Made by a program: the position numbers. A DNA stretch of 64,000 nt, taken from contig NW_026932690.1 in assembly GCF_032062105.1 (NCBI RefSeq), forward strand, positions 248,001 through 312,000. Reading direction: 5' to 3'. Shown one piece after another: positions 18,001 to 24,000 of this stretch (positions are counted from its first letter, which is position 1; each line of letters begins with the position of its first letter). This DNA is from Saccostrea cucullata (taxonomy: Eukaryota).

Positions 18001-21000
18001 TATTTTTCTTAACATGTAATCAACAAAATGATACTCATGTCACTAACACACAAGCCATCAGCTGATCCTTGATTTCCATTACAAAGACGGGCTTGTTTGA
18101 TAGACATTATCTAAGTGTGGTGATAAAAATAATACAGTGTACTCCGATTACCGTGGCGACACAGAAGACATGTGATTGGTTCTAAGGAGAGATGAATGAG
18201 GTGGATATTACATTTATTGGCTCTCTGGTTCTAACATTGGTTATCATCACCATAAAAACAGGTTAGTGATAGACCCAGTTTATACACGACTTTTCTCTAA
18301 ATACTATTTTTTTTTCCCTCTTAGTTATTTTTTTTTTATTCTAATTTTGTTTGAGATCATTTACGTATGATATTTGTAAAAACTTCTGCTGCAAAAAAAG
18401 CAAATTTAAAATTAAAATAATACCCCCAAAGCTGCCCACTTTGCATCTTCTTATCATGCAGCTTTCATCTTAATATAACTACACATAATTATCATGCCTT
18501 GATAACTTAGATACAAGAATTTATAAGTGAGGCTTTCATCTAGAACCTTTTCATTCATACAAGTTTAAAGCATTTTTTTCCGACCAGTGTGAATTACCAT
18601 ATAAGCAGAAATTTTAGCTAGGATCTAATTTTGGCATCGTTAGTGAGGGTACCAAGATCACTAACATTGAATATCGCTAAAATTTTATTGCGCTTTATTT
18701 GAAAAAAGTTTATAAAGAGAGCTTATAAAAATAGCTAGAATTATATCTCACTAAAAATAAAATACAAATTTTTAAGGACAAATTGCTAATTTTGCATCTC
18801 GCTAAAATTTCCTCTTATACGGTACATATTTTGTGCATATAAGGCTTTAAAATATAAACTGTACATTTTTGTTTTATAATGTTTAAAGAATCTAAACATT
18901 TGAAGCATTAGAAACAGATAAACTGCTTCATCCTCCCATCTGAACAGCATCTGTTTTTTCAATTGATGCTAGTACATGCTATGAAGCACTTCTTTTTAAA
19001 TTCAAATTTAAACATCTGAAATCAAGTCTGCTTGTTCATGAACAGCTTCAACAAAAAAGCTTACAAGAACACTTCCAATATAAAAGATTTCATGATGACC
19101 TCTAAAATAACAGCTTTCATGAACACCTCCAACATAAAAGTTTACAAGAACACCTCCAATAAAAAAGCTTTCATGAACACCTCCAACATAAAAATTTACA
19201 AGAACACCTCCAACAAAATAGCTTTCATGAACACCTCCAACATGAAAGCTTACATAAACACCTCCTAAATTGAAGGGCTTCCTGGTACATGAACACCTCT
19301 ATTAAAGGTGCATAGACACAGATTTGAAGTTAATTTTTACCCAAATTTTCTGCACAACATTACTACTTATATATTGCAATAGCATTTCACAAGAAAATAT
19401 AATTAAAATCTTATTTCATCTCAAAGTTATTGAAACTTCGAATTTCTGGTCGGGTTTGATTGACACGTCCTTGCACTTTCACAAATTATAATTTTATTCT
19501 TAATACTTAAGAAAAGTGGCAATTTTGTTGTATATTTATGAAAACTATTAAAAATTTAATCTAGAAAAATCAGAGTAAAAATGTTCGAAAGGTAAACGCA
19601 CTCACAGTTTATTGTCAGTCTGTGCTCAGTGGTATGTGCAGACTTTAACAACTTGAACACACTTGTGAATCATAAACATAAACAATAACAGAGCTAGTGC
19701 GCTGTCTACAAAACCAGTTTATGCTTCACAATTGTATTCAATTTGTTAAACTCTGTACAGAACACTGAAAAGGGAATGACAATACCAGTGAGGGGGTTTT
19801 AATTTTGAACATTTTAAACATAAAAGTTTACATGAACATCCCTAACAAAAGAACTTGTTTTTTTGTGCCTATTTCTGACATTGTTTACTGGTCCATTGAC
19901 TAAAGATATTTCTAGAAATTTTGGAATTCACACGAATAAGTCAAATAAAATGTAAATAGAATGCTGAATTAATGCAGATAAAAAGGTACCTAATATAATA
20001 TCGACTAGTAAATAATTCTTGAATTCCATTTCAGTTGAGGGTGGTAAATGTTTACAAGATGCACAGCGGCAATGTCAGACAGAATCAGCCGGTCTAATAG
20101 AGGCCCAAACAAAAAGATCAGGGGTTTGTGGGTAAGATGGTGTTCTAAAACATACTCAGGTCCATCACATTTGTACATTGTAAATCATTTTAATTCCACC
20201 ATTTTAAAATTTCATGATTTCTGAAAAAATATAGATCGTGATGGATTTTTGTTTCATCTAATAAAGAAAGAACTTAGGTAATAATTTTATTGTAACTTAA
20301 TAAAAGCTAAGGATAAAAGATTGCCTACTTCCAAGAGGAAGCAACTACAGGAGTCTTTATTAGAGGAGAGGAACTTTGAGTAATAAATGCAAATGGTTTA
20401 AATACCCTGACTGTACAAATGCATTACAGTGTGACCTATTTTCCAGTAGAATGTAACTTTTTCCGTATAAAATGACCTACTTTTCAGTAGAATGTGACCT
20501 ATTTTTCAGTAGAATATGACCTTTTTTCAGTAGAATGTGACCTATTTTTCAGTAGAATATGACCTATTTTTCAGTGGAATGTGACCTATTTCTCAGTAGA
20601 ATGTGACCTATTTTTCAGAATATGACCTATATTTTTCAGAATATGACCTATTTTTTTTTCAGTGCATATGCTGACTATGACACCTGCATAAAAACCTCCA
20701 TCACCAAGCTAGGCTGTTACCTGTCCCCTAATGAAGCAGATCTCTATGAAAAAGATATAACTAATATATACACTGAGTACCCGTATAAGTGTACCAAAAC
20801 TGCTAGTGGTAAGTAAAAACCTCCATTCACCAAGCTGAGATGTCACCTGAACCTCTGTATACTGAGTAATTTGAAATTCAGATAGATTTCTCAGCGCTCA
20901 ATTATTTGCTCTGTAATATGCCAATTGGAATTTTAGAAAGTATTGTTCACCACTAAAAAATATTTTTCTTTCTTCCTGGAACAGGTTGGATAGCATCCTA

Positions 21001-24000
21001 CACAGCCCGCTCAGGAGCATCAGGGAGTTTGTCAGTGGTCACAGGGAGTGTGTCAGTCCTGATCAGCTTCACCAATACAATGGGATTTCTCTGTCTCTTA
21101 CACTGATTCTCATGTTAATTACTTAACACTGTGATATATTATTATTTTTAATTGTTATCATTTTATGTAGATATTGCAATAAAAATAATTCCACAATTAA
21201 AATTTCAATTTTTAGTATACACCTGTACATTACTCATAATACTGTAAATCACTTTTTATTCGCGAGAACTTTATTTTCGCGTAATTACGCGAGGCAATGC
21301 GTTCGCGAAAATTTAATTCTCGCGTATAAAAGTATTCCTTACGATTATATAGAGGAATAACAACTATTCGTGAAAATTATGTCTCGCTTACAAAAAGTCA
21401 ATGACAATCTCGCGAAAATAAGGTGTCGCGAAAAATTAGTAATCTACAGTATATAAGTGTAACAAAACAGATAAAACCACCTGCACTGGCAGTTAAAGTA
21501 AATACTGAGTATGTGCATGCATAAAATTCCTTTTATTTTACACATGCACGTACATATACTCAATAATTATATTATTTATTTTCGATTTAACTAAACATAG
21601 TCAACATACATTGCATACAGCATAACGTTAATACTGAGAACTATAGCTCTCCTGCAAAAATATTTTGACAGACCAGAGGGCTACAGTGCCACCCATTGAA
21701 AAAACTGTATATTTATTGCGGACAAAAAAGTGTGCGGTTTCTTGATTTATTTCTCCATATATTTAAATTGTCATCTCAAAATTTCACAGACTGTGTCTTC
21801 CTAACATATTTCTACACTACTTCCAAAATAAATCATTCCGAAAAAGTGTTGCTAATAATCTTCCTTGGCCTGAAATTGAGACCATCAAAAATGTCGCCTG
21901 TGTATACAATCATTTTGAGTCTAAGGATAATACCATCCAATGTGCTTTGGACGTGACTGGTACATAAAGCTTTGTTGCGGAAGTAGTAAGAAAATATGTT
22001 GGAAACTCATGGTTAGTAGCATTTTGATGTATACAGATAAATTATTTGATAAACAGTGCACTTTTTGTTGCGCAATAGATTTACATGTACACTTTTTTTC
22101 AGTGGGTGACACTGTAGCTCTCTGGTCGTCCATCCCAATTTTTTAATACCAGTGAGCTACAGATCTGCAGCTAAGAACTAATGTCCTCTGAATATAAAAT
22201 GTGATTAAATTGTTGTCACTGACCTTTTGTTTATACAAGGTACTGAAATGGTTATTTCTAAAGAACACACAAAGCTGGTCTTCTTTCACGGTTGAGTTGA
22301 GTTCATACAGCCCATGGTAAGTCAGCTGTGATGCTGTTCTATCAAGGAAAGACTCTGCCAACAGTGCTAAAATAAAAAAGAATCTTAATAATTAAAAGTA
22401 TCCTACTGCAGACTTTGATAAAATGTCAAAATTACTTTCTTTCTCAAATTTTCCAATAGAGTTTCGTTGTTAGATGTTGCTAACTTTAGTTTTTTTTTCA
22501 TCACTTATTACATCTACCATGGATTCTGCATGCACTTTGCCAAAATAGCAGCAAGGGTTTTGATATAACTGCAGGATGCACAACCTTTAGTGAAGCAAAT
22601 GTTTGTAAAATGTGATACACTGCTTAATCACATGATGATGGATTATAATAAATCATCTCTTAAAAACAACTAAAGAAAATGGTCTTGTATTCTTGCACTT
22701 AGGCTATACATGTAACTGGAACATAAAATGGCCAAACTAGTGTGTGATTTTTTCATGAATATATACACTAAGAATTGCATTGTACATTTGGCAAACTTGT
22801 ATTAATTCATATTACATCAATTCTGTAGAAACATAAATGATCCTGTGAGGACAGGAAATTGTCTCCATGATTTAATTAATCCTGTGTGCTCTCCAGTCTT
22901 TTTAAATATTTCCTGATCTACTAGTTCTCACAGAAACCTGAACAATTTTACATTCCCTCGTACTAAGTGTTGAAGTGCCTGAGTATTTATCTAATTATAT
23001 CGAGATAAGAGACATATTCAACTTCCCTCTCCTACCCATTCATTTTCCTGAGGAACTCTTACAAATGAAGTTTTTATTTTTTTTCTCTTATATCCTAAAC
23101 ACTTTACATTCTTTACTCATTCATAACCTTCAATTTATATTTTTTCCCTTATGATTATTTTTGTTTATTTGTTTGTTGATTTTATTGGGGGGGGGGGATT
23201 CTCTTTCGTAATACTATAGAGAGTGTGCTAGAGGAAATTTTAACACTTTCTTTTTCTTCTATCATTATACATGTCATTTTAGAACATTTTACACAAGTCT
23301 GCCTGCCTGCATTGCCCCTGTGATTACCTTGGTTCACGAGGTCTGGTCTCTCGGAGCTCCGATCGCTGATAATTTTTTCCACCAGCTGATTATAACTACA
23401 GTTACCGATCGCCTCCACCATTCTCATGTCCTGGGGATCAACAAGCCAACCATGGTACAGAGGGATACCCAACAGGTCAAAGATTATACACTCAGGGGTG
23501 TACTCAAAATCCTGTATCCTGCAATATATATATTTTTTGATTAAGAAATGAATTTAATTTTTGAAGATTCATGAGGTTATGAACTACGACGCTTCACACC
23601 GGCATATTTCATGAATCGCTTTAGCGCTTCATGATAAATATGCCAGCGTGAAGCTTTGTAGTTCATATACCTGATGAATCTTCAAAAATTAAATTCATTT
23701 CTTATATTTACATTATTTTTCTGATGACTAGTTATAAATTTACGCCATTCAACTGTCATTTTTAAAGCAAAACAGTGTAGACGCGAAGTGCGGTATTATG
23801 ACATAACAATGGAGATATTCATTCGTGGTACAAATGTAATGTAGTTCATGAGAAAATGAACTGCATTTTATTTTGTAAAGAATCATACGGGAAATTTATT
23901 GGAAATGTAAATATTCAAATATTGACAACATAATCTACATAATAATTTGATAAACCTTATATGCATAAACTTAGAAAATCCACATTTTCTTTAAACATTT

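What the first reader, a model, noticed from the sequence alone, without database searches (positions are those of the whole stretch)
18192..21106. Hidden antisense nested gene encoding a neuritin/RGM-N-like GPI-anchored six-Cys protein
Seen: four small exons, mostly missed by the ORF track, splice in phase into 144 aa. The protein has a hydrophobic N-terminus, Cys spacing C-x7-C-x17-C-x8-C-x9-C-x24-C, a small-residue omega-like site (RSGASG) and a hydrophobic tail, and is followed by AATAAA. From memory, vertebrate neuritin/CPG15 is ~142 aa, GPI-anchored, with C-x9-C-x24-C-x8-C-x7-C-x27-C; short matches are GKC, VCxxxxDxxxC, ADLYEK vs KDMWDK and GASGSL vs GAAGSL. RGM N-terminal and DUF19-type helical domains have similar spacing. 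Inference: a possible lophotrochozoan member of a neuritin-like family that I recall mainly from vertebrates.
Basis: partly seen in the sequence, partly recalled or inferred. Interest (0 to 1): 0.75.

Follow-up and report, generated by a model that had tools for sequence, protein, structure and literature searches.

The report
Small oyster surface-protein gene inside MINDY
This is a real but already annotated four-exon oyster gene, lying backwards inside an intron of a deubiquitinase gene, that encodes a small six-cysteine protein probably tethered to the cell surface by a lipid anchor; its proposed kinship with vertebrate neuritin remains an untested lead.

Summary
Four plus-strand exons (18192-18261, 20035-20131, 20663-20808, 20985-21106) have GT/AG borders, join in phase to 435 nt, and are followed by AATAAA at 21178. 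Searching exon 3 alone returned NCBI's 144-aa 'uncharacterized protein LOC134235818 [Saccostrea cucullata]'. It maps back to exactly these four blocks. The gene is therefore real but not hidden.

Relatives turned up only in oysters: Saccostrea echinata, Crassostrea virginica, Magallana gigas and unnamed short contigs. The six Cys and their spacing are the same in 6 of 7 aligned members; the seventh differs by one residue in one gap. The core is conserved, while the signal peptide and tail vary. The tail is uncharged and hydrophobic to the last residue, as in a GPI signal.

The host is a MINDY deubiquitinase gene on the minus strand.

The neuritin assignment is only a lead:
- Pfam NRN1, RGM_N and DUF19 match 0 of 10 members.
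- A language-model search puts neuritin as the nearest named family at 0.86, but the core alone gives nothing.
- Two low-confidence AlphaFold models have RAMP ectodomains as their nearest solved structures, with no significant hit.

Overall this is an oyster-restricted family of unresolved affinity, of modest interest.

The parts
18192..18261 (+). Exon 1: start codon and signal-peptide-like hydrophobic N-terminus (23 codons plus 1 base, phase 1)
   Evidence: tblastn of RefSeq protein P0005 residues 1-23 gives 100% identity at 18192-18260. Donor CAG|GTTAGT.
18262..20034 (+). Intron 1 (1773 nt), holding a 27/81-nt tandem repeat at 19035-19270
20035..20131 (+). Exon 2: Cys 1-3 and the predicted first helix, with the invariant motifs KCLQDAQ and SAGLI
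   Evidence: Single-exon ORF fragments P0018 and P0019 from other contigs lose homology at this exon's 3' border.
20132..20662 (+). Intron 2 (531 nt), with a 22-nt tandem repeat at 20430-20655 (10.6 copies) ending just before the exon 3 acceptor
   Evidence: Each unit contains a TTTTTCAG acceptor-like string (read from the consensus unit).
20663..20808 (+). Exon 3: Cys 4-6 and the predicted second and third helices; the most conserved piece
   Evidence: 100% to P0005; E 2.5e-26 to the S. echinata protein. Fragments P0013 and P0017 lose homology at both borders.
20985..21106 (+). Exon 4: invariant WIA, a small-residue stretch (ARSGASG), an uncharged hydrophobic C-terminus resembling a GPI signal, and the stop TGA at 21104-21106
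   Evidence: Fragment P0020 carries the same exon with intron read-through upstream.
21178..21183 (+). AATAAA polyadenylation signal
   Evidence: A second signal, ATTAAA, is at 21196.
22146..22391 (-). Host gene: MINDY deubiquitinase exon upstream of the host intron (MINDY_DUB profile 181-228)
   Evidence: E 1.9e-19.
16197..16409 (-). Host gene: MINDY deubiquitinase exon downstream of the host intron (MINDY_DUB profile 226-264)
   Evidence: E 4.2e-12.

Best explanation
A genuine protein-coding gene of the hooded oyster Saccostrea cucullata, already annotated by NCBI as LOC134235818. It is transcribed from the plus strand inside a 5.7-kb intron of a minus-strand MINDY deubiquitinase gene.

Its 144-residue product belongs to a small family that I could find only in oysters (Saccostrea, Crassostrea, Magallana).

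Most likely mechanism:
1. An N-terminal signal peptide takes the precursor into the ER and is cut off just before the invariant K-C.
2. About 80 residues fold into a small helical domain, with three helices predicted, held by three disulfides among the six conserved Cys.
3. The hydrophobic C-terminal signal is exchanged for a GPI anchor at one of the small residues after the conserved W-I-A ... A-R-S stretch.
4. The domain then sits on the outer leaflet of the plasma membrane as a tethered, possibly sheddable, ligand or co-receptor.

Shown: the exon structure, identity with the RefSeq model, conservation across oyster genera, six conserved Cys (spacing identical in 6 of 7 aligned members), a conserved core against a variable leader and tail, and the nesting in MINDY.

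Inferred: signal-peptide cleavage, disulfides, GPI anchoring, helical fold and function.

Whether the domain is a remote relative of neuritin, of RAMP ectodomains, of both or of neither is unresolved.
For: Gene model:
- The exon-3 peptide alone finds the 144-aa NCBI protein at 100% and a 138-aa S. echinata protein at 88%.
- P0005 maps to exactly the four proposed blocks.

Family:
- One search gave 7 proteins at E <= 10 among 24 candidates. One search gave 13 among 8000 scored.
- The named ones come from Saccostrea, Crassostrea virginica and Magallana gigas.
- Four complete 133-199-aa relatives sit uninterrupted on contigs of only 939-1483 nt. In this window the exons span 2.9 kb, which fits spliced mRNAs.
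- Single-exon fragments lose homology at the exon borders.

Conservation:
- There are 53 invariant columns among 7 sequences, including all six Cys.
- Identity to P0005 is 57-71 of 82 in the core, 5-19 of 26 in the leader and 0-20 of 36 in the tail.

Anchor:
- Tails are uncharged to the last residue. The Crassostrea-type hydrophobic end is only 11-12 residues long, with no cytosolic tail.

Fold:
- Two AlphaFold runs both give three helices between the Cys.

Host:
-.
Against: - No transcript data from this species could be inspected. I could not see what evidence NCBI's model rests on.
- No dedicated signal-peptide or GPI predictor was available, so the anchor rests on hydropathy and layout only.
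- In S. cucullata itself the uncharged tail after ARSGASG is 26 residues, long enough for a membrane-spanning helix.
- The C. virginica isoform X2 (113 aa) and the M. gigas UniProt entry (117 aa) lack the tail or part of exon 2. Either not every product is anchored, or those models are faulty.
- Both structure models are of low confidence (pLDDT 51.3 and 57.3; pTM 0.37 and 0.43).
- No Pfam family reaches its cut-off.
- Function is pure inference.
Confidence: 0.72

Rival explanations
1. It is a true, very divergent homologue of vertebrate neuritin (NRN1/CPG15). It would work the same way: a GPI-anchored, sheddable neuronal or growth-promoting surface ligand.
For: - Layout and size are the same. 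The neuritin cluster representative in the Atlas is 142 aa and this protein is 144 aa.
- The review PMC12715718 (abstract seen in the listing) calls neuritin a GPI-anchored protein.
- The ESM Atlas feature search gives neuritin (PF15056 on 100% of 131 members) as the nearest named family, at score 0.86. All ten best named hits share that family or clan.
The third gap, x8, is identical. This is recalled, not tested here.
Against: - Pfam NRN1 matches 0 of 4 exon peptides and 0 of 10 family members at E <= 10.
- The Atlas score is under 0.9, which the tool calls 'a lead only'.
- 159 shared features is below the 170 typical of same-family hits. A third of shuffled proteins also get ten concordant hits.
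- The core alone (26-108) gives no usable hit.
- Searches for neuritin in oysters or molluscs found no relevant paper.
Confidence: 0.2
2. It is a RAMP-like ectodomain: the three-helix, three-disulfide domain of receptor activity-modifying proteins, here on a lipid anchor instead of a transmembrane helix. It would act as an accessory subunit of a class-B GPCR such as the oyster calcitonin-type receptors.
For: - Foldseek of both models against 350,542 PDB chains puts RAMP chains first. In one search they fill ranks 1-10. In one search they fill every printed rank from 1 to 18.
- The best ectodomain match is 3n7s_D: TM 0.54 by target, rmsd 3.9 A, 82 columns.
- Pfam RAMP (PF04901) is a weak hit of the exon-3 peptide (E 0.13, 12.7 bits), of P0005 (0.27) and of P0006 (0.5).
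- The predicted helices place the Cys as I recall them in RAMP1: start of helix 1, within helix 1, loop, within helix 2, loop, after helix 3. This is recalled, not tested.
Against: - No Foldseek hit reaches E <= 0.001. The best is 0.17 at probability 0.57. The query models are of low confidence, which the tool says gives meaningless matches.
- The two models share most of their alignment, so they are not independent.
- Pfam RAMP is far below its 27-bit cut-off and matches only 2 of 10 members. Plainly spurious families score better (Phage_sheath_1 0.011, SIC 0.018).
- Profile and single-sequence searches of PDB sequences find no RAMP at E <= 10.
- RAMPs have a transmembrane helix and a nine-residue cytoplasmic tail (PMC9832379, passage from section 10). 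This family has neither.
- Mollusc calcitonin receptors were activated without RAMPs (PMC7200681, passage from the discussion).
Confidence: 0.08
3. The protein is not GPI-anchored. It would be either a single-pass or tail-embedded membrane protein held by its hydrophobic C-terminus, or simply secreted.
For: - In S. cucullata the uncharged tail is 26 residues, long enough to span a membrane.
- The C. virginica isoform X2 lacks the small-residue stretch and most of the tail.
- No GPI predictor was run.
Against: - In four Crassostrea-type members the terminal hydrophobic run is only 11-12 residues. It is preceded by Pro, His or Asn and ends the protein. That is too short for a bilayer and typical of a GPI signal.
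- The tail sequence is free to vary (0-20 of 36 identical) while its character is kept.
Confidence: 0.15
4. There is no gene: four chance ORF pieces with chance splice signals, or a gene-prediction artefact copied between annotations.
For: - No RNA evidence from this species was seen here.
- The exons are short and the window is AT-rich (33.6% GC), so GT/AG pairs are common.
Against: - All four pieces are conserved in another genus, with invariant Cys, while leader and tail drift.
- Uninterrupted full-length ORFs occur on short unnamed contigs.
- Homology stops at the exon borders.
- Independent sources (NCBI and UniProt entries for four species) hold the family.
Confidence: 0.02

Closest known systems
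Neuritin / CPG15 (NRN1, Pfam PF15056)
   Same: - Similar length: cluster representative 142 aa against 144 aa here.
- Signal-peptide-like start, six Cys in a helical core, small-residue stretch and hydrophobic end of GPI-signal type.
- Nearest named family by language-model features.
   Different: - No match to the Pfam NRN1 profile in 0 of 10 members.
- The neuritin cluster is chordate, whereas this family was found in oysters only.
- The feature likeness is lost when leader and tail are removed.
RAMP1-3 extracellular domain (Pfam PF04901; PDB 2yx8, 3n7s, 3aqe, 6e3y chain E)
   Same: - Nearest solved structures to both models.
- About 90-residue ectodomain predicted as three helices, with six Cys.
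- Weak Pfam RAMP hits over the exon-3 region.
   Different: - All scores are below significance.
- RAMPs carry a transmembrane helix and a nine-residue cytoplasmic tail (PMC9832379, passage). This family ends in a short uncharged hydrophobic run.
- RAMPs are reported as not found in molluscs or other protostomes (PMC7200681 and PMC12638048, passages).
RGM N-terminal domain (PF06535) and DUF19 (PF01579)
   Same: Cys-rich helical extracellular domains. RGMs are also GPI-anchored (recalled, not checked here).
   Different: - No Pfam hit in any of 10 members.
- No RGM chain among the rows printed in either PDB Foldseek search.
- RGMs are several times longer (recalled).
Lineage-restricted small secreted Cys-rich proteins of bivalves (generic class)
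   Same: Short, with a signal peptide, conserved Cys, no Pfam domain and detectable relatives only within one family of bivalves.
   Different: This is a class, not a homology family. It explains the distribution but says nothing about fold or function.

Membership tests
Neuritin (NRN1, PF15056) | Significant match to the Pfam NRN1 profile | tested here: not met
   No NRN1 hit at E <= 10 for the four exon peptides, for P0005 and P0006, or for 0 of 10 members of A2. The tool warns that hits above about 0.1 are mostly filtered out.
Neuritin (NRN1, PF15056) | Layout: signal peptide, about 85-residue six-Cys core, GPI attachment signal, about 140 aa in total | tested here: inconclusive
   Hydropathy and layout fit and lengths are 133-144 aa. 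No SignalP or NetGPI was on hand.
Neuritin (NRN1, PF15056) | Same fold and disulfide map as neuritin | not testable with these tools
No AlphaFold-DB library was on hand. Neither Foldseek search of the PDB listed a neuritin entry.
Neuritin (NRN1, PF15056) | Nearest family in an independent embedding search | tested here: inconclusive
   Whole protein: neuritin cluster at 0.86 with 159 features, and ten of ten named hits concordant. Core alone: no usable hit.
RAMP (PF04901) | Significant match to the Pfam RAMP profile | tested here: not met
   Best score 12.7 bits (E 0.13) against a cut-off of 27. Only 2 of 10 members match at E <= 10.
RAMP (PF04901) | Three-helix-bundle ectodomain superposable on RAMP structures | tested here: inconclusive
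   RAMP chains fill the top ranks in both Foldseek searches, but E >= 0.17 and TM 0.31-0.54 by target. The query models have pLDDT 51-57.
RAMP (PF04901) | Single transmembrane helix followed by a short cytoplasmic tail | tested here: not met
   The proteins end in an uncharged hydrophobic run. This is 11-12 residues in Crassostrea-type members, with nothing after it. The definition is taken from a passage of PMC9832379.
RGM_N (PF06535) / DUF19 (PF01579) | Match to the Pfam profile, or to solved RGM structures | tested here: not met
   0 of 10 members match at E <= 10. No RGM entry appears among the rows printed.
GPI-anchored proteins (generic) | Cleavable N-terminal signal, small-residue omega region, short polar spacer, and hydrophobic C-terminus with no residues beyond it | tested here: inconclusive
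   All four elements are visible in 6 of 7 aligned members. C. virginica isoform X2 lacks the omega stretch and most of the tail; P0007 keeps them but reads on about 65 residues beyond. They were judged by eye and hydropathy only.
MINDY deubiquitinase (host gene, PF04424) | Match to the MINDY_DUB profile across the flanking minus-strand exons | tested here: met
   Four exons with E 1.4e-17 to 4.2e-12 cover profile positions 2-264 in order.

The most novel reading that the evidence does not exclude
The oyster family is a protostome representative of the three-helix, three-disulfide surface domain seen in chordate neuritin and RAMPs. It would be either the first neuritin-type factor outside chordates or a lipid-anchored RAMP-like accessory protein for class-B GPCRs. 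Published searches report no RAMPs in this group (PMC7200681 and PMC12638048, passages). If both weak signals are real, it would also hint that neuritin and RAMP ectodomains share an origin.
Probability: 0.15. Interest if true: 0.65.

Novelty: new member of a known kind. Interest (0 to 1): 0.35.

Why it matters
As it stands, the result tidies up a scan finding. The gene is real, its model agrees letter for letter with RefSeq, and it is an uncharacterised, oyster-restricted small surface protein.

It would matter more if the remote likeness proved true. Neuritin and RAMPs are both treated as chordate inventions, and the calcitonin-signalling literature states that RAMPs were not found in molluscs or other protostomes. 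A bivalve relative would move one of those origins back to the bilaterian ancestor. It would also give a testable accessory-protein candidate for oyster calcitonin-type receptors, which have been linked to shell mineralisation (PMC7200681, abstract and passages).

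Tried and rejected
- **Exon-by-exon Pfam scan.** It gave only a sub-threshold RAMP hit for exon 3.
- **Exhaustive phmmer of exon 3 against 1.84 billion representatives.** There were 5 hits at E <= 0.001. Three of them (P0012, P0014, P0015) are long internally repetitive proteins that I set aside as repeat-driven after reading them. Two real relatives remain (P0013, P0009).
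- **Profile and single-sequence searches of PDB sequences.** Nothing came below E 0.085, and no RAMP, RGM or neuritin was found.
- **ESM Atlas structure search.** All TM by query were <= 0.50, to unrelated families, so I rejected them.
- **AlphaFold.** Two requests were not sent because the queue was full. The two runs that went through gave low confidence, so the Foldseek results are treated as leads only.
- **Literature searches.**
  - Neuritin in invertebrates, oysters or molluscs: nothing relevant.
  - The four locus or accession names: 0 papers.
  - A neuritin-RAMP fold link: nothing.
  - The neuritin review PMC12715718: no passage on cysteines, structure or phylogenetic range.
  - A Saccostrea cucullata genome paper: none found.
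- **Joined exons.** Searches from the window used each exon's own peptide. Full-length work used the public protein records that those searches returned.
- **Not checked.**
  - RNA-seq support.
  - Supplementary files of papers, which were closed. They might list this locus in expression tables.

Full report
**1. What is there**

The window is AT-rich (33.6% GC), has no N, and has a CpG observed/expected ratio of 0.51. On the plus strand between 18192 and 21106 I re-derived four exons from the sequence:

- E1 18192-18261: ATG start, donor CAG|GTTAGT.
- E2 20035-20131: acceptor ccatttcag|, donor TGG|GTAAGA.
- E3 20663-20808: acceptor tttttttttcag|, donor GTG|GTAAGT.
- E4 20985-21106: acceptor cctggaacag|, stop TGA.

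The lengths 70+97+146+122 add to 435 nt, which is 144 codons plus the stop. The phases (1, 2, 1) fit. AATAAA lies at 21178. I translated each exon's in-frame part on its own (P0001-P0004). Every search that started from the window used one exon's peptide.

**2. Is it a gene?**

Yes. The 48-residue exon-3 peptide, searched against longer proteins, returned two hits among 5 candidates:

- 'uncharacterized protein LOC134235818 [Saccostrea cucullata]', 144 aa, 100% identical.
- 'uncharacterized protein LOC133187282 [Saccostrea echinata]', 138 aa, 88% identical.

The first record (P0005) maps by tblastn onto the window in exactly four blocks. These are 18192-18260, 20031-20132, 20664-20810 and 20978-21103. 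It maps nowhere else at E < 0.5. The window is S. cucullata DNA, and the gene is annotated rather than hidden.

The S. echinata protein hits the four exons at E 2.5e-26, 2.6e-14, 4.7e-10 and 0.005. A Crassostrea-type relative (P0009) hits E3, E2 and E4 at 7.7e-20, 1.3e-10 and 0.048.

**3. The family**

- A full-length search with the S. echinata protein gave 7 proteins at E <= 10 among 24 candidates.
- A profile search with alignment A1 gave 13 among the 8000 candidates scored.
- The named members are from S. cucullata, S. echinata, Crassostrea virginica (LOC111129809 isoform X2, 113 aa) and Magallana gigas (A0A8W8N079, 117 aa).
- The rest come from unnamed short contigs, which I cite by id only.
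- Four of these (P0007-P0010, 133-199 aa) carry the whole reading frame uninterrupted on contigs of 939-1483 nt. In this window the exons span 2.9 kb, so those contigs are most simply spliced transcripts. This is an inference.
- Five others (P0013, P0017-P0020) are single-exon ORFs. Their homology stops at the borders of E2, E3 or E4 and runs into unrelated read-through. That is what conserved exon borders look like in unspliced DNA.
- The exhaustive phmmer search of exon 3 against 1.84 billion cluster representatives found 5 proteins at E <= 0.001. Three are long internal repeats that I set aside after reading them. The two real ones belong to the same oyster family.

With the tools at hand, the family is therefore visible in oysters only. 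A 48-residue query cannot see far, so this sets a floor on the family's range and no ceiling.

**4. The protein**

- In the 7-sequence alignment, 53 columns are invariant, including all six Cys.
- The Cys sit at 29, 37, 55, 64, 74 and 99, giving x7, x17, x8, x9 and x24. Six of the seven aligned members share this spacing. C. virginica has x16 in the second gap.
- Identity to P0005 is 57-71 of 82 in the core. It is 5-19 of 26 in the leader and 0-20 of 36 in the tail. This is the usual pattern when leader and tail are cleaved signals kept only in character.
- The leader has a hydrophobic core with a Kyte-Doolittle mean of 2.1-3.3 over 11 residues. It is followed by small or polar residues and the invariant K-C.
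- After the invariant W-I-A comes A-R-S plus small residues, then a spacer, then an uncharged hydrophobic run that ends the protein. In Crassostrea-type members this run is only 11-12 residues.
- That is too short for a transmembrane helix and leaves no cytosolic tail. I therefore read it as a GPI attachment signal. No dedicated predictor was available, so this remains an inference.
- In S. cucullata a six-residue insertion makes the uncharged tail 26 residues long, so this one species alone would not exclude a membrane span.

**5. Which family?**

*Pfam.* No family reaches its cut-off.
- NRN1, RGM_N and DUF19 are absent at E <= 10 from the four exon peptides and from P0005 and P0006.
- They are also absent from all 10 members of A2.
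- The tool hides most hits above about 0.1.
- The only recurring name is RAMP (PF04901): E 0.13 for exon 3, 0.27 and 0.5 for the two Saccostrea proteins, and 2 of 10 members. This is far below the 27-bit cut-off. Obviously spurious families score better (Phage_sheath_1 0.011, SIC 0.018).

*ESM Atlas, whole protein.*
- Two unnamed mollusc clusters come first, at 0.93 and 0.90. They may be this family's own clusters.
- A chordate neuritin cluster comes third, at 0.86 with 159 shared features.
- All ten best named hits share that family or clan.
- The tool's own calibration makes this a lead only.

*ESM Atlas, core only.* Residues 26-108 gave no usable hit. The likeness may therefore rest on the shared layout of leader, small Cys domain and GPI tail.

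*Structure.*
- Two AlphaFold runs gave low confidence: pLDDT 51.3 and pTM 0.37 with P0005 first, and pLDDT 57.3 and pTM 0.43 with P0009 first, where ten-residue core blocks averaged 57-77.
- Both place three helices between the Cys.
- Foldseek against 350,542 PDB chains gave no hit at E <= 0.001 in either case.
- RAMP1-3 chains nevertheless filled ranks 1-10 and every printed rank from 1 to 18.
- The best ectodomain match is 3n7s_D, with TM 0.54 by target and rmsd 3.9 A over 82 columns.
- No RGM chain appears among the rows printed.
- As far as these searches show, the PDB holds no neuritin, so this test could not have found it.

*PDB sequences.* Sequence searches find no RAMP.

**6. Weighing it**

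The neuritin idea and the RAMP idea each rest on weak, non-significant signals.

- Neuritin fits the layout better, because RAMPs have a transmembrane helix and a nine-residue cytoplasmic tail (PMC9832379, passage seen).
- RAMP is the nearest solved fold.
- The two may not exclude each other if the three domains share a three-helix, three-disulfide design, but nothing I could run tests that.
- I therefore file the protein as a member of neither family.
- I commit to the mechanism that the anatomy supports: a secreted, disulfide-clamped helical domain held on the cell surface by a GPI anchor, acting as a tethered ligand or co-receptor.

**7. Surroundings**

The host on the minus strand is a MINDY deubiquitinase. 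ORFs at 24999-25541, 23185-23553, 22146-22391 and 16197-16409 match MINDY_DUB profile positions 2-67, 104-163, 181-228 and 226-264. The nested gene lies in the 5.7-kb intron between the last two.

Its own introns hold two tandem repeats. One is a 22-nt unit repeated 10.6 times that ends just before the E3 acceptor.

**8. Literature**

- No paper in the library holds any of the four locus or accession names. Supplements were closed and might list them.
- Searches for neuritin with oyster, mollusc or invertebrate terms found nothing relevant.
- On RAMPs I read passages only. [quoted passage not shown]
- PMC12638048 states that RAMPs have not been found in protostomes and may be unique to chordates.

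**9. Verdict**

- The gene model is already public. What is new is only the description of an oyster-restricted family and two weak leads to chordate surface domains.
- Interest is modest unless profile-profile and AlphaFold-DB comparisons, which I could not run, confirm one of those leads.

Noticed in passing
window 20430-20655 (+): A 22-nt tandem repeat (10.6 copies, 81% matches) fills most of intron 2 and ends 7 nt before the exon 3 acceptor. Each unit carries a TTTTTCAG string, so the intron holds about ten acceptor-like decoys upstream of the real site.
   Followed up: partly
window 19035-19270: A 27/81-nt tandem repeat in intron 1 (8.5 copies of 27 nt). It makes open frames on both strands (82 and 96 aa) that are repeat artefacts, not genes.
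   Followed up: partly
window 43529-48588 (+): Exons of a Suppressor of Hairless / CSL (RBP-J type) transcription factor. LAG1-DNAbind matches at 43529-43777 and 43887-44108, and TIG_SUH at 47742-48146 and 48358-48588. The ORF at 38290-38658 may be an upstream exon but has no Pfam match.
   Followed up: partly
window 14611-14922 (-): Probable last coding exon of the MINDY gene. It has a poly-Gln run and an Arg/Glu-rich stretch and no Pfam match.
   Followed up: no
window 21230-21450: Just after the polyadenylation signal lies a stretch with many copies of a CGCGA/TCGCG-containing motif (seen), in a window that is otherwise CpG-poor. It is possibly a repeat element.
   Followed up: no
window 39766-40482 (-), and 34975-35280 / 38099-38332 (-): Sets of near-identical 77-101-aa open frames that recur at intervals. 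They are probably tandem or dispersed repeat elements rather than genes.
   Followed up: no
window 52384-52651, 57663-57953, 58860-59265: Long GA/TC dinucleotide microsatellites, which give SLSLSL / RERERE open frames on both strands.
   Followed up: no
P0011 and P0016 (relatives, not in the window): The C. virginica isoform X2 replaces the GPI-signal-like tail with a short different end. The M. gigas UniProt entry lacks the part of exon 2 that holds the first two Cys. These could be alternative splicing or faulty models.
   Followed up: no
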